From NCBI GenBank assembly GCA_021810605.1, contig JAJZIL010000003.1, forward strand, positions 214-64,213: a stretch of 64,000 bases of DNA, given 5' to 3'. Positions within the stretch are counted from its first letter, which is position 1; every line of letters starts with the position of its first letter. This DNA is from a bacterium. GTDB taxonomy: Bacteria > Patescibacteriota > Dojkabacteria > JAKAPS01 > JAJZLI01. The notes under the pieces were generated by a model. The model saw only the letters and a list, made by a program, of their open reading frames with translations. It was not told the DNA's origin and made no database searches. Below are positions 11,690-27,599 of this stretch, one piece after another. The position numbers and the translations under genes were made by a program.

Positions 11690-11857
11690 ATGAATAAAAA
11701 TTTGATAAATTTAATTTATGTTCTAGCTATGATAACTACAGTAGTTATTATAGATATAATTTTCTTTAGAAATCAATTCTGGGCAAGATTAATATCAAAT
11801 ATTGGTATTATACTTATATATATAGCTTTCTATATAGTATATATTATCAACCATTGA
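11690..11857 (+). CDS. putative small two-TM membrane peptide (55 aa)
   Basis: ORF found by eye: MNKNLINLIYVLAMITTVVIIDIIFFRNQFWARLISNIGIILIYIAFYIVYIINH; two hydrophobic segments; convergent with the ATP-grasp gene. Confidence 0.2.
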   Translation: MNKNLINLIYVLAMITTVVIIDIIFFRNQFWARLISNIGIILIYIAFYIVYIINH

Positions 11858-11868
11858 AAAATATAAAA

Positions 11869-13689
11869 TTATTTATCACCTTTTAGAAAAGATGCAATAT
11901 TCTTTGAGATAGGAAGATTTAATGATTCTTCAATCCAAAGATATTGACCATTTGGATTTAATTCTAAAAAATATATATTACTATTTTTATCTTGTATAAG
12001 ATCAATTGCAGAATAATTAAGATTATAATATTTATTTAATTTTAATAATTCATCTTCAATATCTTTAGATAATTTGTATTTTTCATAAGTTAAACTATTA
12101 TAATCTGTTCTAAAATCTATTCTTGATTTTTCTGAATGTGAAAATATTTTAGCAGCAAATATTTTATCTCCAATAATAGTAACTCTAATATCACAAACTT
12201 TATCTATAAATTCTTGACAAATAACAGGCATATAATTTAAATCAATTTTATCTATATCAACTATATTTGTTAAAGTAGTTTTAAATATCCCATCTTCTAA
12301 TCCTAAACTTTGAGATCTTAATGTTTTCATTACAAACTTATCTTGGAATATTTTTTTTATAATTTCTTTTTTATTAGTAATTACTGTTTTTGGTATATTC
12401 ATTTCTACAACATTTAGTTGATGTATTTTATTTGAAGCTATTCTCATATCTGATTTATTATTCACCCAGCTTCTTATTGGAATATTTAATATAATTCCTT
12501 CTAAAAATTCTATTTTTTCTTTTTTTGCAATATTAGATAAATTTATATTTTTTAAATACTTAGAAGAGGGTGTAATAAATATTGGTTTTCTCCACCAACA
12601 AATATCATATACACGCGAATATCTTTTATCAGTATCAAAAAACTCTCCAGTCATTTCTGAAAGAGTATCAACATACCCATCATTCTCTAAATCATTAACA
12701 CCAAATACATCAACATGATACTTATTTTTATCAATAAAAGTTAATACTTTCTGAACATGTGGATCATCTTGCTCTGATATAATAAGTATCTTTCTTTTTT
12801 TATATTTATATTTATCTGATATAAAAAACTTTTTATCATTAAGGATTCCAATAAAACCTCCAGGATCTATTTGTGAATACAAATCAACTTTATTGTTAAT
12901 ATATTTATAAATTTTATTAGTATTTTCTTTGTTAAATGAATCTTTTAAGGTTACTATTTGTGTACTTGCAAGCATATATACATCATTATCTATCTTATCA
13001 ATTAACTGAGATAATAACTTATTAGCAATATAATTGTACTTTTCTATAGAAGACAAATATGCAAGTTCTGGAATTATTTCAGACAAAAAAGTATCATATG
13101 TAATATTAAAAGGATATGTCAAAAATTCTTTTATTATATCTAATCTCTCATCAGGATCCTTTAAATAATAAAGATTGCAAATTACTTTACTAAATTTATA
13201 ATATGTAAGAAAAGATATTAAATTATCTATTCTACCATTAAATATTTTCTCTATATCTTCATTAGATTTTAACTTTAATAAATCTTTATAAAGTTTATAT
13301 GTTGTAAAATAACTCAAATTATTTTTATCAAAATACATTCTATTAGAAGATGGAATAAATTCATAATGATATAACATTGGTATTTCTTTCAATAATTTTT
13401 CATATTGCAAATTATCTTTATATTTAAACTTGATTTTATAAATATAAATACTATGTTTATATCTAACTCCAGGTCTTGCTGTCTTCATTACGTAATAATA
13501 TTGATTATTTTTAAATGTAAATATTTTTCCTATATCTTTAAAACTATTATCTACACATTTCCTATAAATATATTCAATAACCTCATCAATAAGGGAATTA
13601 CTTTCATTATTATAATAAATAACAAAGATTTCTTTATATATATCAAGATAATATTTTCTTCTTATATGTGGCATAATTAAAAATTTCAA
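11869..13689 (-). CDS. RiPP (graspetide/microviridin-type) ATP-grasp ligase with about 270-aa N-terminal extension
   Basis: The C-terminal ~330 aa are paralogous to the 25374..26390 ORF (shared DICWWRKP, SHSEKSRIDFRTDY, LNYSAIDL, FLELNPNGQYLWIE). A precursor-like peptide gene lies immediately upstream. Confidence 0.6.
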   Translation of the reverse strand: MKFLIMPHIRRKYYLDIYKEIFVIYYNNESNSLIDEVIEYIYRKCVDNSFKDIGKIFTFKNNQYYYVMKTARPGVRYKHSIYIYKIKFKYKDNLQYEKLLKEIPMLYHYEFIPSSNRMYFDKNNLSYFTTYKLYKDLLKLKSNEDIEKIFNGRIDNLISFLTYYKFSKVICNLYYLKDPDERLDIIKEFLTYPFNITYDTFLSEIIPELAYLSSIEKYNYIANKLLSQLIDKIDNDVYMLASTQIVTLKDSFNKENTNKIYKYINNKVDLYSQIDPGGFIGILNDKKFFISDKYKYKKRKILIISEQDDPHVQKVLTFIDKNKYHVDVFGVNDLENDGYVDTLSEMTGEFFDTDKRYSRVYDICWWRKPIFITPSSKYLKNINLSNIAKKEKIEFLEGIILNIPIRSWVNNKSDMRIASNKIHQLNVVEMNIPKTVITNKKEIIKKIFQDKFVMKTLRSQSLGLEDGIFKTTLTNIVDIDKIDLNYMPVICQEFIDKVCDIRVTIIGDKIFAAKIFSHSEKSRIDFRTDYNSLTYEKYKLSKDIEDELLKLNKYYNLNYSAIDLIQDKNSNIYFLELNPNGQYLWIEESLNLPISKNIASFLKGDK

Positions 13690-13723
13690 TTCTAATAAAT
13701 TATGATATTTCTTAGATTAAAGA

Positions 13724-13864
13724 TTAATCATCATTAGTATCATCTGCATCCTGTTTATGTGTAGAATGTGTTTGCCACATTACTATTGAATCATCAAACT
13801 CTTAAATATCATTATCTGTTAACCATTCAATTGGTGTAATTATATCTATTTTTAGAGTTTCCAT
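13724..13864 (-). pseudogene. graspetide-type precursor peptide interrupted by an in-frame TAA
   Basis: Translation METLKIDIITPIEWLTDNDI*EFDDSIVMWQTHSTHKQDADDTNDD*; the stop at codon 21 aligns with CAA (Gln) in the paralogous precursor at 27185..27319. Shared SD/start context ggaggtgatttatattATG. Confidence 0.4.
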
Positions 13865-13927
13865 AATATAAATCACCTCCTTATTTTTTAATTATTCATA
13901 TTATAATTTTTATCAATAAAAAAGACA

Positions 13928-13943
13928 TTGCTATGCATAGCAA
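13928..13943. promoter_or_regulatory. perfect 16-nt palindrome TTGCTATGCATAGCAA, putative operator upstream of precursor 1
   Basis: Lies about 64 bp upstream of the ATG; one of four conserved copies (14887, 20632, 27383) inside a conserved ~40-bp block. Confidence 0.55.
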
Positions 13944-14108
13944 ATTTCTATCTGGCATTAATTTAAAGGAATAATTTAGGTAGATAAATTTTTATTGAAA
14001 ATAGAGTATTTTTTTGAATTTCAGATAATTATTTTATATAGAGTATATAGATTTTGATAATAAAACTATTTTATGAATTTCTTCCTCCACTCATATATTT
14101 TTGTTTCT

Positions 14109-26390: not shown

Positions 26391-26445
26391 TAGAACAATT
26401 ACGTCTTCTTTATATTTTTAATGTAATTTTTTCTTATTTTAATAA

Positions 26446-27153
26446 TTATATTACTAATTCTTTTGCAATAGATCTCATTGACTCTCGAATTAATTTTACT
26501 TCTTTATCTTTTATAGCAATAATATTTTGATTACTATATTGTACTCCAATTTTAGAAGGAGATTTTTTCCAATTAACTATTATAGTGTTACTAGAAATAT
26601 TAGGATTTTCTAATTTTTTATAAATTACGCCAAAATAGATATTATCAGTATATTTTTTTGCCAAATTTTTTGCTATTTTTAATGTTAATCCAGATACAAT
26701 CCAATCATCAATAAAGAGAATCCTCAATGAATGCCTATCTAAATCACTATTTTTAGATATTTTTATAAGATTTAATATAATATCATTAAATCTTTCTTCT
26801 AAATAACTATAATATTCTAATTTAAGATACATAAAGTGTATTTTATGATCAATTGTAAGAAAGGGTTTATTATTGTTCATTTCTTTCCAAGTATAATAAG
26901 TTGCTAAACTAAAAAGCCTTCCTCCTGTATCACATCCTATTATTATTTGAGGCTTAACTTCTTCAATAAATTTACTTAAAGGTATCGATAACACTAGAAG
27001 ATCTTCTGGATTTAAATACTGAGAGTATTTTAAATTATCAGGTTCTCTTTTTTCTTCAATATTAAACTCTTTATATTCTTTCTCTAAAGTATTTCCAAAG
27101 ATTATATTTACACCATCAAATTTTTGTGTCTTATAATAAAAATCAGTCTCCAT
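26446..27153 (-). CDS. phosphoribosyltransferase-fold protein of unknown role in the graspetide cluster
   Basis: IIIGCDTGGRLFSLATYY and RILFIDDWIVSGLTL resemble the type I PRTase PRPP-binding loops. Confidence 0.35.
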   Translation of the reverse strand: METDFYYKTQKFDGVNIIFGNTLEKEYKEFNIEEKREPDNLKYSQYLNPEDLLVLSIPLSKFIEEVKPQIIIGCDTGGRLFSLATYYTWKEMNNNKPFLTIDHKIHFMYLKLEYYSYLEERFNDIILNLIKISKNSDLDRHSLRILFIDDWIVSGLTLKIAKNLAKKYTDNIYFGVIYKKLENPNISSNTIIVNWKKSPSKIGVQYSNQNIIAIKDKEVKLIRESMRSIAKELVI

Positions 27154-27184
27154 AATAATCTTAAAGTAAGTGGCTTTAAATTTA

Positions 27185-27319
27185 TTAAAGCCACCCTATA
27201 GGCCATTAAATATTATCTCTATCATCATATGCTGTATATGTCTCTTCTCCATTAGTTATTTCTTGAATCTCAGTATCTTGAATCCACTCTAATGGATTAA
27301 CTTCATTTAATGTTTCCAT
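27185..27319 (-). CDS. graspetide-type precursor peptide (44 aa)
   Basis: Hand translation METLNEVNPLEWIQDTEIQEITNGEETYTAYDDRDNINWPIGWL*. Leader shares METL...P(L/I)EW(I/L)xD with precursor 1; core rich in Thr/Tyr and Asp/Glu with no Lys; SD GGAGGTGATTATATT-ATG; operator upstream. Confidence 0.5.
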
Positions 27320-27382
27320 AATATAATCACCTCCTTCTTTTTTTAATTAATTATATTATATTGCTTATTAATAATTTTGTCT

Positions 27383-27398
27383 TTGCTATACATGGCAA
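27383..27398. promoter_or_regulatory. operator-like near-palindrome TTGCTATACATGGCAA upstream of precursor 3
   Basis: About 64 bp upstream of the ATG; embedded in the conserved cttattaataattttgtctttgctata block. Confidence 0.5.
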
Positions 27399-27599
27399 AT
27401 CTCCATTTTACATTGATTTAAAAGAATAATTTTGAGGTATAAATTTACAAATTTATAATATTGTCTCTGGGTATCGTAGACGAAGTTAGAACATTTATAA
27501 AATTAAATCCTTCTTAATATTTCTAAATATTCTTTATTCGTAAGTCTAAGTAATATTATATTTTTCTCAATCTGAAACCTATACTAATAAATTTTATTT

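What the first reader, a model, noticed from the sequence alone, without database searches (positions are those of the whole stretch)
11690..27400. Three RiPP-type precursor genes share one promoter/5'UTR/leader start but pair with different enzyme classes (two ATP-grasp, one YcaO)
Small ORFs found by eye at 13724-13864, 20409-20570 and 27185-27319 (all minus strand) share an almost identical upstream block: a palindromic operator, the SD GGAGGTGAT, and ATG GAA A(C/T)(T/A) TTA. Each sits directly upstream of a different modification cluster. P1 and P3 precede paralogous microviridin-type ATP-grasp ligases; P2 precedes a YcaO, SagB-like dehydrogenase and S9 peptidase set. P1 and P3 also share a P(L/I)EW(I/L)xD leader motif. 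A single regulatory and leader cassette reused across graspetide-like and thiazole/oxazole-like pathways inside about 16 kb is unusual. It suggests a co-regulated, diversifying family of modified peptides that may be new.
Basis: partly seen in the sequence, partly recalled or inferred. Interest (0 to 1): 0.85.

Follow-up and report, generated by a model that had tools for sequence, protein, structure and literature searches.

The report
Shared promoter module on RiPP operons
Three neighbouring operons for modified peptides (two ester-crosslinked, one thiazole/oxazole type) each begin with a copy of the same palindrome, promoter, ribosome-binding site and first four codons; relatives of this uncultured AT-rich bacterium put the same module in front of other peptide chemistries, and one of the three peptide genes is broken in this genome.

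Summary
Three minus-strand small ORFs share a roughly 100-nt 5' module. It holds a 16-bp palindrome TTGCYATRYATRGCAA (3 hits against 0.09 expected), TATAAT 21-22 nt downstream, a long Shine-Dalgarno AAGGAGGTGAT, and ATG GAA AYW TTA. HMMs confirm two paralogous graspetide-type ATP-grasp ligases (56% identical), plus a YcaO, a SagB dehydrogenase and an S9 prolyl endopeptidase.

Corrections:
- P1 carries an in-frame TAA at codon 21 here. Another strain has CAA, so P1 is a pseudogene in this genome.
- P3 ends at 27206, not 27185.
- A PRTase-like gene lies between P3 and its ligase.
- Only ME(T/I)L is shared by all leaders. The rest of each leader is specific to its enzyme class.

Related metagenomic contigs carry the same module before at least six further precursor types, with three kinds of ATP-grasp ligase, a YcaO/SagB pair or an S9 peptidase alone. 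The palindrome alone also precedes a predicted membrane-protein operon with a large ATPase gene and small non-RiPP genes. One strain has a mosaic promoter, which points to recombination between copies.

Best reading: a lineage-specific, transcription-factor-controlled promoter and translation-start module spread by duplication and gene conversion. Co-regulation is inferred, not shown. This is a new variant of known kinds.

The parts
27320..27445 (-). Module copy 3, upstream of P3. Parts: upstream element (...TTATTCTTTTAAATCAATGTAAAATGGAGAT); palindrome 27398..27383 (TTGCCATGTATAGCAA); -35-like AAGACA; TATAAT 27360..27355; SD GGAGGTGAT 27334..27326.
27206..27319 (-). P3, graspetide precursor, 37 aa: METLNEVNPLEWIQDTEIQEITNGEETYTAYDDRDNI.
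   Evidence: The sister-species copy is 94.7% identical in DNA, and the core is invariant with two synonymous changes.
27169..27195 (-). 11-bp stem hairpin just after P3, probably an attenuator or RNA-stabilising hairpin.
   Evidence: z -2.45. The stem is kept by compensatory changes in L025.
26446..27153 (-). 235-aa protein with a divergent type-I phosphoribosyltransferase-like domain (PRPP-loop-like motif ILFIDDWIVSGLTL). Its role in the pathway is unknown.
   Evidence: Searches give weak hits. In a full HMMER search, 25 of 40 family members hit Pfam Pribosyltran. The sister species has a 76% identical copy at the same position.
25374..26390 (-). Graspetide-type ATP-grasp ligase. The likely start is 26336, giving 320 aa.
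23551..25350 (-). ABC exporter with fused permease and ATPase, 599 aa. Probable exporter of the P3 product.
   Evidence: The order is conserved in L025, L026 and L031.
21049..23549 (-). Decayed accessory genes. 23549..23388 plus 23391..22906 are fragments of a 219-aa protein. 22843..22313 is the N-terminal fragment of a two-ATPase-domain ABC protein. 21731..21558 plus 21534..21049 are fragments of a 234-aa protein.
   Evidence: 74-82% identity to intact genes of L025 and L026
20571..20660 (-). Module copy 2, upstream of P2. Parts: perfect palindrome 20647..20632; TATAAT 20610..20605; SD GGAAGTGAT 20585..20577. It lacks the upstream element.
20409..20570 (-). P2, Cys-rich precursor, 53 aa: MEILTIEKELSMEDIEDALIEVEESLDTVSSSTCGDGNRCQCNNCSCGNGHRC. 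It contains no proline.
   Evidence: It is identical in five strains, and a sixth has S30F.
20322..20385 (-). Long hairpin between P2 and the YcaO gene.
   Evidence: z -1.7, weak
18997..20277 (-). Stand-alone YcaO cyclodehydratase, 426 aa, C-terminus ...IPHFFL.
   Evidence: It aligns only to the YcaO half of MusD, TruD and LynD.
18248..18994 (-). SagB-family FMN dehydrogenase, 248 aa.
16267..18231 (-). S9 prolyl endopeptidase, 654 aa, propeller plus catalytic domain.
   Evidence: The best solved relatives are true prolyl endopeptidases 2bkl and 3iuj, E about 1e-71.
14855..14906 (-). Fourth, degenerate module copy: TTGTTATGCATAGTAA followed by AGACAAAATTATTAATAAGTATTAGAAT. It has no strong SD and lies upstream of the 238-aa ORF 14825..14109.
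   Evidence: (nhmmer E 9e-5; blastn 96% over 26 nt)
13865..13990 (-). Module copy 1, upstream of P1. Parts: upstream element; palindrome 13943..13928 (TTGCTATGCATAGCAA); TATAAT 13905..13900; SD 13880..13872.
13724..13864 (-). P1, graspetide precursor. It is a pseudogene here because of an in-frame TAA at 13804..13802. Strain L005 has the intact form: METLKIDIITPIEWLTDNDIQEFDDSIVMWQTHSTHKQDADDTNDD.
   Evidence: An intact ortholog is present in L062.
11869..13689 (-). 606-aa fusion of an unknown N-terminal domain of about 295 aa with a graspetide-type ATP-grasp ligase. The likely ATG is at 13674, giving 601 aa.
   Evidence: The full length is 55% identical to the 629-aa protein of L031.

Best explanation
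Window 11.7-27.4 kb is a chromosomal island of three RiPP operons in an uncultured bacterium of about 24% G+C.

Shown by sequence and HMMs:
- Operon 3 encodes precursor P3, a PRTase-like protein, a graspetide ATP-grasp ligase and an ABC exporter.
- Operon 1 encodes precursor P1 and an ATP-grasp ligase fused to an unknown N-terminal domain. P1 is inactivated here by a CAA-to-TAA mutation.
- Operon 2 encodes the Cys-rich precursor P2, a stand-alone YcaO, a SagB dehydrogenase and an S9 prolyl endopeptidase.
- Each operon starts with a copy of one lineage-specific expression module. The module holds an optional A/T-rich upstream element, the 16-bp palindrome TTGCYATRYATRGCAA, a weak to moderate -35, TATAAT 21-22 nt after the palindrome, a short UTR, the 11-nt Shine-Dalgarno AAGGAGGTGAT, and ATG GAA AYW TTA (ME-T/I-L).

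Inferred:
- A dimeric transcription factor binds the palindrome. Its centre lies about 42 bp upstream of the predicted start site and abuts or overlaps the -35. That is the class-II activator position, although a repressor that blocks the -35 fits equally well. The factor would switch the operons on and off together.
- The strong SD and the hairpins after the precursor genes give much more precursor than enzyme.
- The module spreads and is homogenised by duplication and gene conversion. Behind it the leader body and core evolve freely to fit whichever enzyme follows. The P(L/I/V/F)(E/D)W(L/I) motif is the ligase-recognition helix of the graspetide leaders.
- The products are Thr/Ser-Asp ester-crosslinked peptides (P3, and P1 where intact) and an azol(in)e peptide (P2).
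- Speculative: P2 has no proline, so the prolyl endopeptidase may cut after an azoline or azole, which resembles proline.
For: Module statistics and alignment:
-.

Enzyme identities:
-.

Conservation of the module in relatives whose enzymes are only 45-87% identical:
- L025: the P3 ortholog, and a 60-aa Pro-rich precursor followed by an S9 peptidase.
- L026: a 57-aa precursor with PFMANFI, followed by an MvdD-like ligase and a methyltransferase.
- L031 and L061: precursors followed by fusion ligases.
- L024: a METL... precursor followed by YcaO and SagB. Here the palindrome and a TATAAT lie about 180 nt upstream of the precursor ATG rather than about 60 nt.
- Sources.
- In L029 and L062 the SD and the ATGGAAACATTA start are kept without the palindrome.

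The precursors are real genes:
- The P3 core is invariant between species, with only synonymous changes.
- The P1 core MWQT(H/Y)STHK.DADDTNDD is conserved in L062.

The palindrome behaves like a protein-binding site rather than an RNA stem:
- 11 of 16 positions are invariant in 15 copies (positions 1-4, 6, 7, 11, 13-16).
- The only variable stem pair, 5/12, varies without compensation: C-G 6, T-G 4, C-A 3, T-A 2.

Geometry:
- Palindrome end to TATAAT is 21-22 nt in the window copies and in L022-L024.

Recombination:
- The P3 promoter of strain L002 is 86% identical to the P2 type and 61% to the P3 type between palindrome and SD. Its flanks are of the P3 type (82% and 97%).

Hairpins follow P3, P2 and the L029 and L024 precursors, with compensatory changes at P3. 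The graspetide leader motif 'Phhx(1,2)h' and graspetide clusters in CPR bacteria are described in PMC8939145.
Against: - No transcription-factor gene was found in or next to the island. The only HTH proteins seen in the window are ParB and, by homology to a called gene in L059, a MarR next to an efflux pump.
- There is no expression data and no mapped start site, so co-regulation and the -42 position are inferences.
- Part of the similarity is expected anyway for highly expressed genes in an AT-rich genome: a long canonical SD and an A/T-rich spacer.
- The palindrome is followed by a T-run at P1 and P2, and the terminator scan flagged the P2 copy.
- The palindrome also precedes non-RiPP genes in relatives. 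The putative regulon is therefore broader than RiPPs, and the link to RiPPs may be partly a sampling effect.
- No E1-like or RRE partner for the YcaO is encoded in the operon, so azoline formation is less certain.
- P2 has no proline for a prolyl endopeptidase to cut after.
- The island shows decay: the P1 stop, four split or truncated genes and a split histidine phosphatase. Some or all of it may no longer function in this strain.
Confidence: 0.68

Rival explanations
1. The palindrome is an intrinsic terminator for the gene upstream. The rest of the similarity is just strong promoter and SD consensus, so there is no common regulator.
For: The terminator scan flagged TTGCCATGCATGGCAA followed by TGTTATTTTT at P2. 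P1 also has a T-run after the palindrome.
Against: - The stem is only 6 bp with a 4-nt loop.
- P3 and all 'AGACAAAA'-type copies have no T-run.
- The palindromes lie 166-400 nt beyond the preceding stop codons.
- The central ATGCAT, which would be the loop and closing pairs, is as conserved as the outer stem. Pair 5/12 varies without compensation, including C-A.
- The spacing to TATAAT is fixed at 21-22 nt, which a terminator does not need.
Confidence: 0.07
2. The block is a generic dispersed repeat or miniature mobile element that happens to sit near these genes, with no functional tie to them.
For: It is multicopy. A degenerate fourth copy (14855-14906) and a 'solo' copy after the ABC gene in L031 exist. 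One strain shows exchange between copies. An IS200-like transposase lies in L031.
Against: - Every strong copy has the same orientation and a fixed distance to a start codon (60-63 nt from palindrome end to ATG).
- The block consists of promoter, SD and start-codon elements.
- There are no terminal inverted repeats or target duplications.
- No copies occur elsewhere in the 64 kb or in about 20 kb of extra flank.
- The block is kept in front of orthologous genes across species.
Confidence: 0.05
3. The three 5' regions are alike only because the operons arose by recent duplication. Selection for strong translation keeps the SD and first codons, and the palindrome has no regulatory role.
For: The ligases are paralogs (56% identity). 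AAGGAGGTGAT is simply the full complement of the 16S rRNA 3' end (own knowledge). L029 and L062 keep the SD and start without the palindrome.
Against: - P2 and its enzymes are unrelated to the graspetide operons, yet their modules are 84% identical over 89 nt.
- The palindrome is invariant at 11 of 16 positions in contigs whose enzymes are only 40-55% identical, and in front of unrelated genes. That points to selection on the palindrome itself.
Confidence: 0.15
4. The island is a decaying remnant. The small ORFs and enzymes are no longer expressed or functional in this strain, so there is no working co-regulated peptide family here.
For: P1 has a nonsense codon in 3 of 4 strains that cover it. 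The 219-aa, 234-aa, ABC-F-like and histidine-phosphatase genes are split or truncated. The fourth module copy is degenerate.
Against: P2, P3 and all six core enzymes and the exporter are intact. They are identical or nearly identical across many metagenomic strains. P3 shows purifying selection.
Confidence: 0.05

Closest known systems
Graspetides (omega-ester peptides), in particular the poorly characterised graspetide loci of Candidate Phyla Radiation bacteria described by Makarova et al. 2022 (PMC8939145)
   Same: - An ATP-grasp ligase of the MdnB/C-related superfamily sits next to a short precursor.
- The leader has a Pro-hydrophobic-aromatic motif.
- The core is rich in Thr/Ser and Asp (T.T...DD.D).
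- An ABC exporter is present.
- The nearest named relative of the ligase is from a 'Patescibacteria group bacterium' MAG.
   Different: - The ligases score far below the curated cut-offs of TIGR04187, MvdC and MvdD (158 against 350 bits).
- The precursors match no curated family.
- One ligase carries an unknown 295-aa N-terminal domain.
- The other operon holds a PRTase-like protein.
- None of the proteins examined here shows the signal peptide or lipoprotein features that the paper describes for its 'cluster 23' family. No direct comparison with that family was made.
Linear azol(in)e peptides / TOMMs (YcaO + SagB-type dehydrogenase; e.g. streptolysin S, microcin B17, cyanobactin heterocyclases MusD/TruD/LynD)
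   Same: A YcaO domain (PF02624), a SagB-family dehydrogenase above its curated cut-off, and a Cys/Ser/Thr-rich core after an acidic leader.
   Different: - There is no E1-like or Ocin-ThiF-like (RRE) partner. The YcaO aligns only to the YcaO half of the fused enzymes.
- TIGR03604 scores 182.7 bits, below its cut-off of 219.
- The operon ends with an S9 prolyl endopeptidase, although the precursor has no proline.
NHLP and Nif11 leader families (Haft, Basu & Mitchell 2010, PMC2887384) and prochlorosin-type precursor families
   Same: One conserved N-terminal precursor element recurs on many precursors with unrelated cores and is paired with different maturase classes in one lineage.
   Different: - Here only four residues are shared, together with the non-coding promoter and RBS. 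The leader bodies differ by enzyme class.
- There is no sequence match to the NHLP or Nif11 models.
- What is conserved is mainly DNA regulatory sequence, not a recognition domain.
Bacteriocin regulons with repeated promoter boxes (streptococcal Blp/Com, Lactobacillus plantarum pln; PlcR and ComR/Rgg boxes); own knowledge, not tested
   Same: Several operons for small secreted peptides in one locus each carry the same regulator-binding box at a fixed distance upstream of the -10. This gives coordinated induction, and the peptide genes diversify behind conserved 5' ends.
   Different: - Those systems use unmodified or lightly modified double-glycine peptides.
- Blp and Pln use direct repeats bound by response regulators, and a pheromone and kinase or an RRNPP regulator is encoded nearby.
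- No such regulator or pheromone gene was found here.
- The peptides here belong to different heavily modified RiPP classes.
Class II CRP/FNR-type activator sites
   Same: A 16-bp palindrome with 5-6-5 geometry (TTGCC-N6-GGCAA), centred about 42 bp upstream of the predicted start and abutting a weak -35.
   Different: The half-site differs from the CRP (TGTGA) and FNR (TTGAT) half-sites. No CRP/FNR-family gene was seen in the window. The start site is predicted, not mapped.
[quoted passage not shown]
   Same: A full-length S9 propeller-plus-hydrolase enzyme is encoded at the end of a RiPP operon. OphP, PCY1 and POPB are among its solved relatives.
   Different: It is paired with YcaO and SagB, and the substrate has no proline. 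In the sister species a 45% identical paralog follows a Pro-rich precursor with no other maturase.

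Membership tests
Graspetide biosynthetic cluster | ATP-grasp ligase homologous to the ribosomal-peptide maturases (MdnB/MdnC, PsnB etc.) | tested here: met
   TIGR04187 hits at E 2e-46 for both proteins, and MvdC/MvdD hits at E 1e-34 to 1e-39 over the full domain. 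Pfam RimK is also hit. Scores are below the curated subfamily cut-offs, so these are superfamily members, not members of a named subfamily.
Graspetide biosynthetic cluster | Adjacent short precursor with a Thr/Ser- and Asp/Glu-rich core | tested here: met
   The P3 core is ...EETYTAYDDRDNI and the P1 core is ...WQTHSTHKQDADDTNDD. The T.T...DD.D pattern recurs in L029, L031, L061 and L062.
Graspetide biosynthetic cluster | Leader recognition motif of the type Phhx(1,2)h (PMC8939145) | tested here: inconclusive
   P-[LIVF]-[ED]-W-[LI] is conserved in five homologous precursors, and a sixth (L031) has T-F-E-W-L in its place. The second position after Pro is acidic, not hydrophobic. Binding was not tested.
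Graspetide biosynthetic cluster | Side-chain ester or amide macrocycles in the product | not testable with these tools
   Needs mass spectrometry of the co-expressed precursor and ligase.
Microviridin (MvdC/MvdD equivalogs) | Scores above the TIGR04184/TIGR04185 cut-offs and a PFFARFL-type leader | tested here: not met
   Scores are 118-133 bits against cut-offs of 425-475. P1 and P3 lack PFFARFL. A PFMANFI leader with an MvdD-like ligase does occur behind the same module in L026.
Linear azol(in)e peptide / TOMM cluster | YcaO cyclodehydratase | tested here: met
   PF02624 at E 9e-37, 127.5 bits against 25.7. TIGR03604 scores 182.7 bits, just below its cut-off of 219.
Linear azol(in)e peptide / TOMM cluster | E1-like or Ocin-ThiF-like partner (C protein, RRE), separate or fused | tested here: not met
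   The operon holds only YcaO (426 aa), SagB and S9. None of them has a ThiF/E1 hit, and the YcaO aligns only to residues of about 526-780 of the fused enzymes.
Linear azol(in)e peptide / TOMM cluster | SagB-type FMN dehydrogenase | tested here: met
   TIGR03605 scores 110.5 bits against a cut-off of 78.4.
Linear azol(in)e peptide / TOMM cluster | Cys/Ser/Thr-rich core peptide | tested here: met
   The P2 C-terminal region is SSSTCGDGNRCQCNNCSCGNGHRC, with 6 Cys.
NHLP / Nif11 shared-leader precursor families | Leader homologous to nitrile hydratase alpha or Nif11 | tested here: not met
   No NCBIfam or Pfam precursor model hits any of the 8 precursors at E up to 1.
Class II activator-dependent promoter | Dimer-binding palindrome centred near -41.5 relative to the start site, overlapping a weak -35 | tested here: inconclusive
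   The geometry fits if transcription starts about 7 nt after TATAAT. The start site is not mapped. The P3-type -35 (AAGACA) is fairly good, so repression by occlusion fits as well.
Class II activator-dependent promoter | Cognate regulator gene | tested here: not met
   No CRP/FNR, Xre, RRNPP or response-regulator domain was found in the ORFs scanned in the window and its flanks. The rest of the genome was not available.
Intrinsic terminator | G+C-rich stem kept by compensatory change, followed by a U-tract | tested here: not met
   Type-B copies have no U-tract. Pair 5/12 varies without compensation.

The most novel reading that the evidence does not exclude
In this uncultured AT-rich lineage, possibly Patescibacteria/CPR, one transcription factor acting through the TTGCYATRYATRGCAA box may control a whole 'interaction regulon'. 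This would include a secretion-like membrane-protein/ATPase operon, small secreted proteins and an arsenal of RiPPs. The box, RBS and METL module would then be a plug-and-play platform onto which new peptide chemistries are recruited by recombination. Those chemistries may include undescribed ones:
- a bacterial prolyl-oligopeptidase-only pathway on a Pro-rich core;
- a YcaO that works without an RRE partner and is processed by a prolyl endopeptidase that cuts after an azoline;
- a PRTase-like enzyme that modifies a graspetide.
Probability: 0.2. Interest if true: 0.8.

Novelty: new variant of a known kind. Interest (0 to 1): 0.58.

Why it matters
- It gives a sequence handle, the box plus the SD and ATGGAAACATTA, for finding short RiPP precursor genes that gene callers miss in a poorly known, uncultured lineage. 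With this handle about ten precursors in several unrelated groups were found, none matching a curated precursor model. They sit with five enzyme contexts.
- It defines a testable regulon and a binding site for an unknown regulator.
- It shows that evolution of the regulatory and translation-start part of RiPP genes can be uncoupled from the leader, core and enzyme parts. This bears on how new RiPP pathways are assembled.
- The accessory proteins are candidates for new RiPP biochemistry: the PRTase-like protein, the N-terminal domain fused to a ligase, the partner-less YcaO and the prolyl endopeptidase with a proline-free substrate.
- If the host is a CPR-type episymbiont, these peptides may mediate host or competitor interactions.

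Tried and rejected
1. Two scans of metagenome contigs. The full-module pattern found nothing. The box-plus-TATAWT pattern gave 26 loci, nearly all at higher G+C and unrelated. Two (L032, L054) were left unexamined. This JGI collection lacks the lineage.
2. The genome-contig scan gave 18 loci. Only L022, L023 and L024 (25% G+C 'bacterium' MAGs) looked related. The source species itself was not retrieved with three hits.
3. AlphaFold models of the 235-aa protein (pLDDT 41) and of the ligase N-terminal domain (pLDDT 47) were too poor. No fold search was run because matches would be meaningless.
4. Word-indexed homology searches for these two proteins found only 2 homologs each. The weak PDB hit of the N-terminal domain to a sugar aminotransferase C-terminal domain (7n63, E 6e-5) was not pursued and may be compositional.
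5. A relative of the PRTase-like protein (P0146) lies in a housekeeping context, so the wider family is not RiPP-specific.
6. Rfam found only tRNAs. There is no riboswitch or leader RNA in the UTRs.
7. A literature search for the palindrome sequence gave no paper. A search for graspetide plus Patescibacteria also gave none.
8. Taxonomy could not be fixed. Cluster look-up returned no organism names. Stop-codon usage is standard, with TGA used as a stop, so this is not a code-25 lineage.
9. No regulator gene was found in the window or in about 20 kb of added flank.
10. The 114-aa plus-strand ORF 20637-20981 begins at the ATG inside the palindrome. It has no family hit. It is judged likely to be spurious, because other box copies give the same M-H-G-K start.

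Full report
**1. What is in the sequence**

The window has about 24% G+C and standard stop-codon usage. It carries ordinary chromosomal genes: ParA/ParB, signal peptidases, a PBP, Ddl, FemAB, iPGM, PEP synthase and tRNAs.

Between 11.7 and 27.4 kb, almost all genes are on the minus strand.
- P3 (27319..27206) reads METLNEVNPLEWIQDTEIQEITNGEETYTAYDDRDNI.
- P2 (20570..20409) reads MEILTIEKELSMEDIEDALIEVEESLDTVSSSTCGDGNRCQCNNCSCGNGHRC.
- P1 (13864..13724) reads METLKIDIITPIEWLTDNDI*EFDDSIVMWQTHSTHKQDADDTNDD.

**2. The shared block is real and beyond chance**

- The palindrome TTGCCATGCATGGCAA (up to 3 mismatches) occurs three times in 64 kb, only upstream of these ORFs. Shuffles expect 0.09.
- TATTATGGAAAYWTTA also occurs only there, against 0.23 expected.
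- Exact GGAGGTGAT occurs only at P1 and P3.
- The 100-nt blocks align pairwise at 84% over 89 nt (P1/P2), 90% over 50 nt (P1/P3) and 93% over 29 nt (P2/P3). The coding sequences of P2 and of P1/P3 diverge within a few codons.
- The order of parts is the same in each copy: palindrome, then 21-22 nt, then TATAAT, then about 25 nt, then AAGGAGGTGAT, then 6-7 nt, then ATG GAA AYW TTA. The distance from palindrome end to ATG is 61-63 nt in the window copies.
- P1 and P3, but not P2, also share about 35 nt upstream of the palindrome.
- A profile of the three blocks found a fourth, degenerate copy at 14855-14906. It reads TTGTTATGCATAGTAA followed by AGACAAAATTATTAATAAGTATTAGAAT, lacks the strong SD, and lies upstream of the 238-aa ORF 14825..14109.
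- No further copy exists in the window or in about 20 kb of added flank.

**3. The enzymes**

Operon 2:
- A 426-aa YcaO: PF02624 E 9e-37, TIGR03604 E 1e-53.
- A SagB-family dehydrogenase: TIGR03605 at 110.5 bits, above its cut-off of 78.4.
- A 654-aa S9 enzyme with both prolyl-oligopeptidase domains. Its closest solved relatives are true prolyl endopeptidases, E about 1e-71.
- The YcaO aligns only to the YcaO half of the fused heterocyclases MusD, TruD and LynD. No E1-like or RRE partner is encoded in the operon.

Operon 3:
- P3 comes first.
- A 235-aa protein follows.
- Next is a 320/338-aa ATP-grasp ligase: TIGR04187 E 2e-46, MvdD E 9e-36.
- A 599-aa ABC exporter ends the operon.

Operon 1:
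- P1 is followed by a 606-aa protein. Its C-terminal 310 aa are 56% identical to the operon-3 ligase. Its N-terminal 295 aa match no family.

All ligase scores lie far below the curated cut-offs for the named microviridin subfamilies, so 'microviridin-type' holds only at superfamily level.

**4. The accessory proteins**

- The 235-aa protein contains the PRPP-loop-like motif ILFIDDWIVSGLTL. It gave only marginal PRTase hits on its own.
- A filter-free HMMER search found 139 relatives. 25 of the 40 best relatives hit Pfam Pribosyltran, with a best E of 6e-10. It is a divergent PRTase-fold protein.
- A distant relative sits among housekeeping genes, so the wider family is not RiPP-specific.
- Structure models of this protein and of the ligase N-terminal domain were of low confidence (pLDDT 41 and 47) and were not used.

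**5. Other strains and species**

Exact-protein look-ups recovered the same locus from several metagenomes and MAGs (L001-L006).
- In strain L005, P1 is intact, with CAA (Gln) where the window, L001 and L002 have TAA. A more distant relative (L062, ligase 76% identical) has an intact ortholog with the core MWQTYSTHKDDADDTNDD. P1 is thus a real gene that is nonsense-mutated in this genome, while its ligase is still intact.
- The island shows other decay. By comparison with intact genes of the sister species, 23549..22906 and 21731..21049 are each a split gene, and 22843..22313 is a truncated ABC ATPase. The histidine phosphatase at 27600-28203 is also split.
- P3 is under purifying selection. 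Between the window and L025 it is 94.7% identical in DNA, against 87-90% for the neighbouring genes. The core is unchanged with two synonymous differences, and the two amino-acid changes lie at leader positions 3 and 5.

**6. The module in relatives**

The following loci were examined.

| Locus | Precursor behind the module | Genes that follow | Notes |
|---|---|---|---|
| L025 | P3 ortholog | PRTase-like protein, ligase, ABC exporter | full module |
| L025 | METLILEGSLSQEDLDD...PDRPDPLPPIPDSNCVSKP (60 aa) | S9 peptidase (45% identical to the window's), 130-aa protein, ABC ATPase | full module; no YcaO |
| L026 | METLERKPFMANFIEIEEP... (57 aa) | MvdD-like ligase, methyltransferase | full module; microviridin-like leader |
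| L031 | 52-aa precursor with TFEWL | 629-aa fusion ligase, ABC exporter | full module |
| L061 | precursor with PFDWL | fusion ligase (P0145) | full module |
| L024 | METLKNEIKEG...CSAGCYPCGGK | YcaO (40% identical), SagB (45% identical) | palindrome and a TATAAT lie about 180 nt upstream of the ATG |
| L029 ('Patescibacteria group bacterium' MAG) and L062 | precursors starting METL... | ligase (split in L029) | AAGGAGGTGAT and ATGGAAACATTA kept, no palindrome |

The palindrome with the same 21-22 nt spacing to TATAAT also precedes other genes:
- A small predicted membrane protein followed by further membrane proteins and a 537-aa ATPase in L023. From reading the sequences this may be a type-IV-secretion-like operon, but no family search was run on these ORFs.
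- A conserved operon beginning with 67-80-aa Gly/Trp/Lys-rich proteins, in L022 and L025.
- A 57-aa ORF in L022.

The box is therefore a lineage-wide regulatory element. The box, SD and METL combination marks RiPP precursors.

**7. What kind of element the palindrome is**

- In 15 copies, positions 1-4, 6, 7, 11 and 13-16 never vary.
- Positions 5 and 12 vary independently: C-G 6, T-G 4, C-A 3, T-A 2. This is the pattern of a protein-binding site with two half-sites, not of an RNA stem.
- The terminator scan flagged the P2 copy. Against that reading, half of the copies have no T-run, the stem is 6 bp, and the palindromes lie 166-400 nt beyond the preceding stop codons.
- With TATAAT at -12..-7, the palindrome spans about -50..-35. 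It is centred near -42 and abuts a weak (ATGTCT) or moderate (AAGACA) -35.
- That is the class-II activator position. A repressor that blocks the -35 would fit as well.
- No candidate regulator gene was found in the sequence available.

**8. How the module evolves**

- The P3 promoter of strain L002 is a mosaic. Between palindrome and SD it is 86% identical to the P2-type spacer and 61% to the window's P3-type spacer. Its upstream flank (82%) and coding part (97%) are of the P3 type.
- L031 has a 'solo' copy of its own precursor promoter after the ABC gene.
- The window has a degenerate fourth copy.
- These observations indicate duplication and gene conversion among copies.

**9. What is shared at protein level**

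- An alignment of eight precursors shows that only M1, E2 and L4 are invariant.
- The ligase-associated leaders share P-[LIVF]-[ED]-W-[LI]. This motif is analogous to the Phhx(1,2)h / PFFARFL recognition motif of graspetides (PMC8939145).
- The S9-associated leaders share ME.L.(I/L)E..LS.ED(I/L).D.
- The 'leader cassette' is therefore really a promoter and translation-start module. The recognition parts are class-specific, as expected for different enzymes.

**10. Post-precursor hairpins**

P3, P2 and the L029 and L024 precursors are each followed by a stable hairpin. The P3 stem is kept by compensatory substitutions in L025. Attenuating or stabilising hairpins after the structural gene are common in lantibiotic and other peptide operons (own knowledge).

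**11. Mechanistic proposal and its status**

Shown:
- Gene content, module structure and conservation.
- The P1 nonsense allele and the mosaic promoter.

Inferred:
- A common regulator acting at the palindrome.
- High precursor-to-enzyme expression.
- Thr/Ser-Asp ester crosslinks on P3 and P1, and azol(in)es on P2.

Speculative:
- The prolyl endopeptidase removes the P2 leader by cutting after an azoline or azole acting as a proline mimic. P2 has no proline, whereas the paralogous S9 enzyme in L025 follows a Pro-rich precursor.
- The PRTase-like protein adds a further modification.

**12. Comparison with known systems**

- Graspetide loci, including loci in CPR bacteria, and their leader motif are described in PMC8939145.
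- YcaO/SagB azole pathways are well known.
- Prolyl oligopeptidases act in class III lanthipeptide maturation (PMC10885120).
- Leader families shared across RiPP classes are known from NHLP and Nif11 (PMC2887384).
- Repeated promoter boxes in front of several bacteriocin operons are known in streptococci and lactobacilli (own knowledge).

What is new here is the combination:
- A non-coding promoter/RBS module plus four codons heads at least five enzyme contexts in one little-known lineage.
- The precursors match no curated family.
- The accessory proteins are unusual.
- The YcaO lacks a partner.

I rate this a new variant of known kinds. It is of moderate to good interest, and useful above all as a mining handle and as a route to an unknown regulon.

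**13. Limits**

- Taxonomy is not established. The only named relative is a 'Patescibacteria group bacterium' MAG.
- The genome outside about 84 kb was not available, so the size of the regulon and the identity of the regulator are open.
- No expression or chemical data exist.

Noticed in passing
window 13802-13804 (minus strand, codon 21 of P1): A TAA nonsense codon interrupts P1 in the window and in strains L001 and L002. Strain L005 has CAA (Gln) and an intact 46-aa gene. The cognate 601/606-aa ligase is intact in all of them.
   Followed up: yes
window 14855-14906 (minus strand) and ORF 14109-14825: A fourth, degenerate copy of the promoter module (TTGTTATGCATAGTAA plus a type-B spacer and TAGAAT) lies upstream of a 238-aa protein of unknown function. 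That protein has a weak MntA-like nucleotidyltransferase hit, E 0.005.
   Followed up: partly
window 21049-23549 and 27600-28203: Several genes are split or truncated relative to the intact versions in sister-species contigs L025 and L026. These are the 219-aa family (53 + 161 aa), the 234-aa family (57 + 161 aa), an ABC protein with two ATPase domains (176-aa fragment), and a histidine phosphatase (45 + 141 aa). The island appears to be decaying.
   Followed up: yes
window 26446-27153: A PRTase-fold protein (GCDTGGR and FIDDWIVSGLT motifs) is encoded between a graspetide precursor and its ligase, and the sister species has it at the same place. I know of no described graspetide pathway that uses such an enzyme.
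   Followed up: partly
window 12790-13689: A 295-aa N-terminal domain is fused to the operon-1 ATP-grasp ligase and is conserved in L031, P0144 and P0145. It has no family hit. A weak PDB match to the C-terminal domain of a sugar aminotransferase (7n63, E 6e-5) may be compositional.
   Followed up: partly
L025 8092-12408: In the sister species the same module drives a 60-aa precursor with a Pro-rich C-terminus (PDRPDPLPPIPDSNCVSKP). It is followed only by an S9 prolyl oligopeptidase, a 130-aa Cys-rich protein and an ABC ATPase. This may be a peptidase-only RiPP-like pathway.
   Followed up: partly
L026 201-2916: The same module drives a 57-aa precursor with a microviridin-like PFMANFI leader motif. 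An MvdD-type ligase, a class-I methyltransferase and the 234-aa protein follow.
   Followed up: partly
L023 2231-5887; L022 991-1330 and 4335-4582; L025 249-2083: The palindrome with the same spacing to TATAAT also precedes non-RiPP genes:
- in L023, a small predicted membrane protein followed by further membrane proteins and a 537-aa ATPase (possibly type-IV-secretion-like, judged by eye only, no family search);
- in L022 and L025, a conserved operon starting with 67-80-aa Gly/Trp/Lys-rich proteins;
- in L022, a 57-aa ORF.
   Followed up: partly
L002 146-230: In one strain the P3 promoter is a mosaic. Between palindrome and SD it carries the P2-type spacer (86% against 61% identity). This is evidence for gene conversion between module copies.
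   Followed up: yes
window 20637-20981 (plus strand): Gene finders call a 114-aa ORF that starts at the ATG inside the P2 palindrome. Other copies of the box give the same M-H-G-K start, and the ORF has no family hit. It is probably spurious.
   Followed up: partly
L031 579-2187 and 6409-6470: This related contig carries ATP-grasp gene fragments (201 + 100 aa) next to an IS200-type Y1 transposase. It also has a solo copy of the precursor promoter after the ABC exporter gene.
   Followed up: no
window 29594-35345: A DUF5677 protein (29594-30427), a type III restriction enzyme (30433-33300, named by a source) and a DNA methylase (33297-35345) lie directly beside the RiPP island. A cluster of six tRNA genes follows at 37698-38264.
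   Followed up: no
window 3377-3727 and L025 10395-10787: Two small Cys-rich proteins each give a weak hit to the RIG-I C-terminal regulatory (zinc-binding) domain. The L025 one lies inside the S9 precursor operon. Whether they are related to each other was not tested.
   Followed up: no
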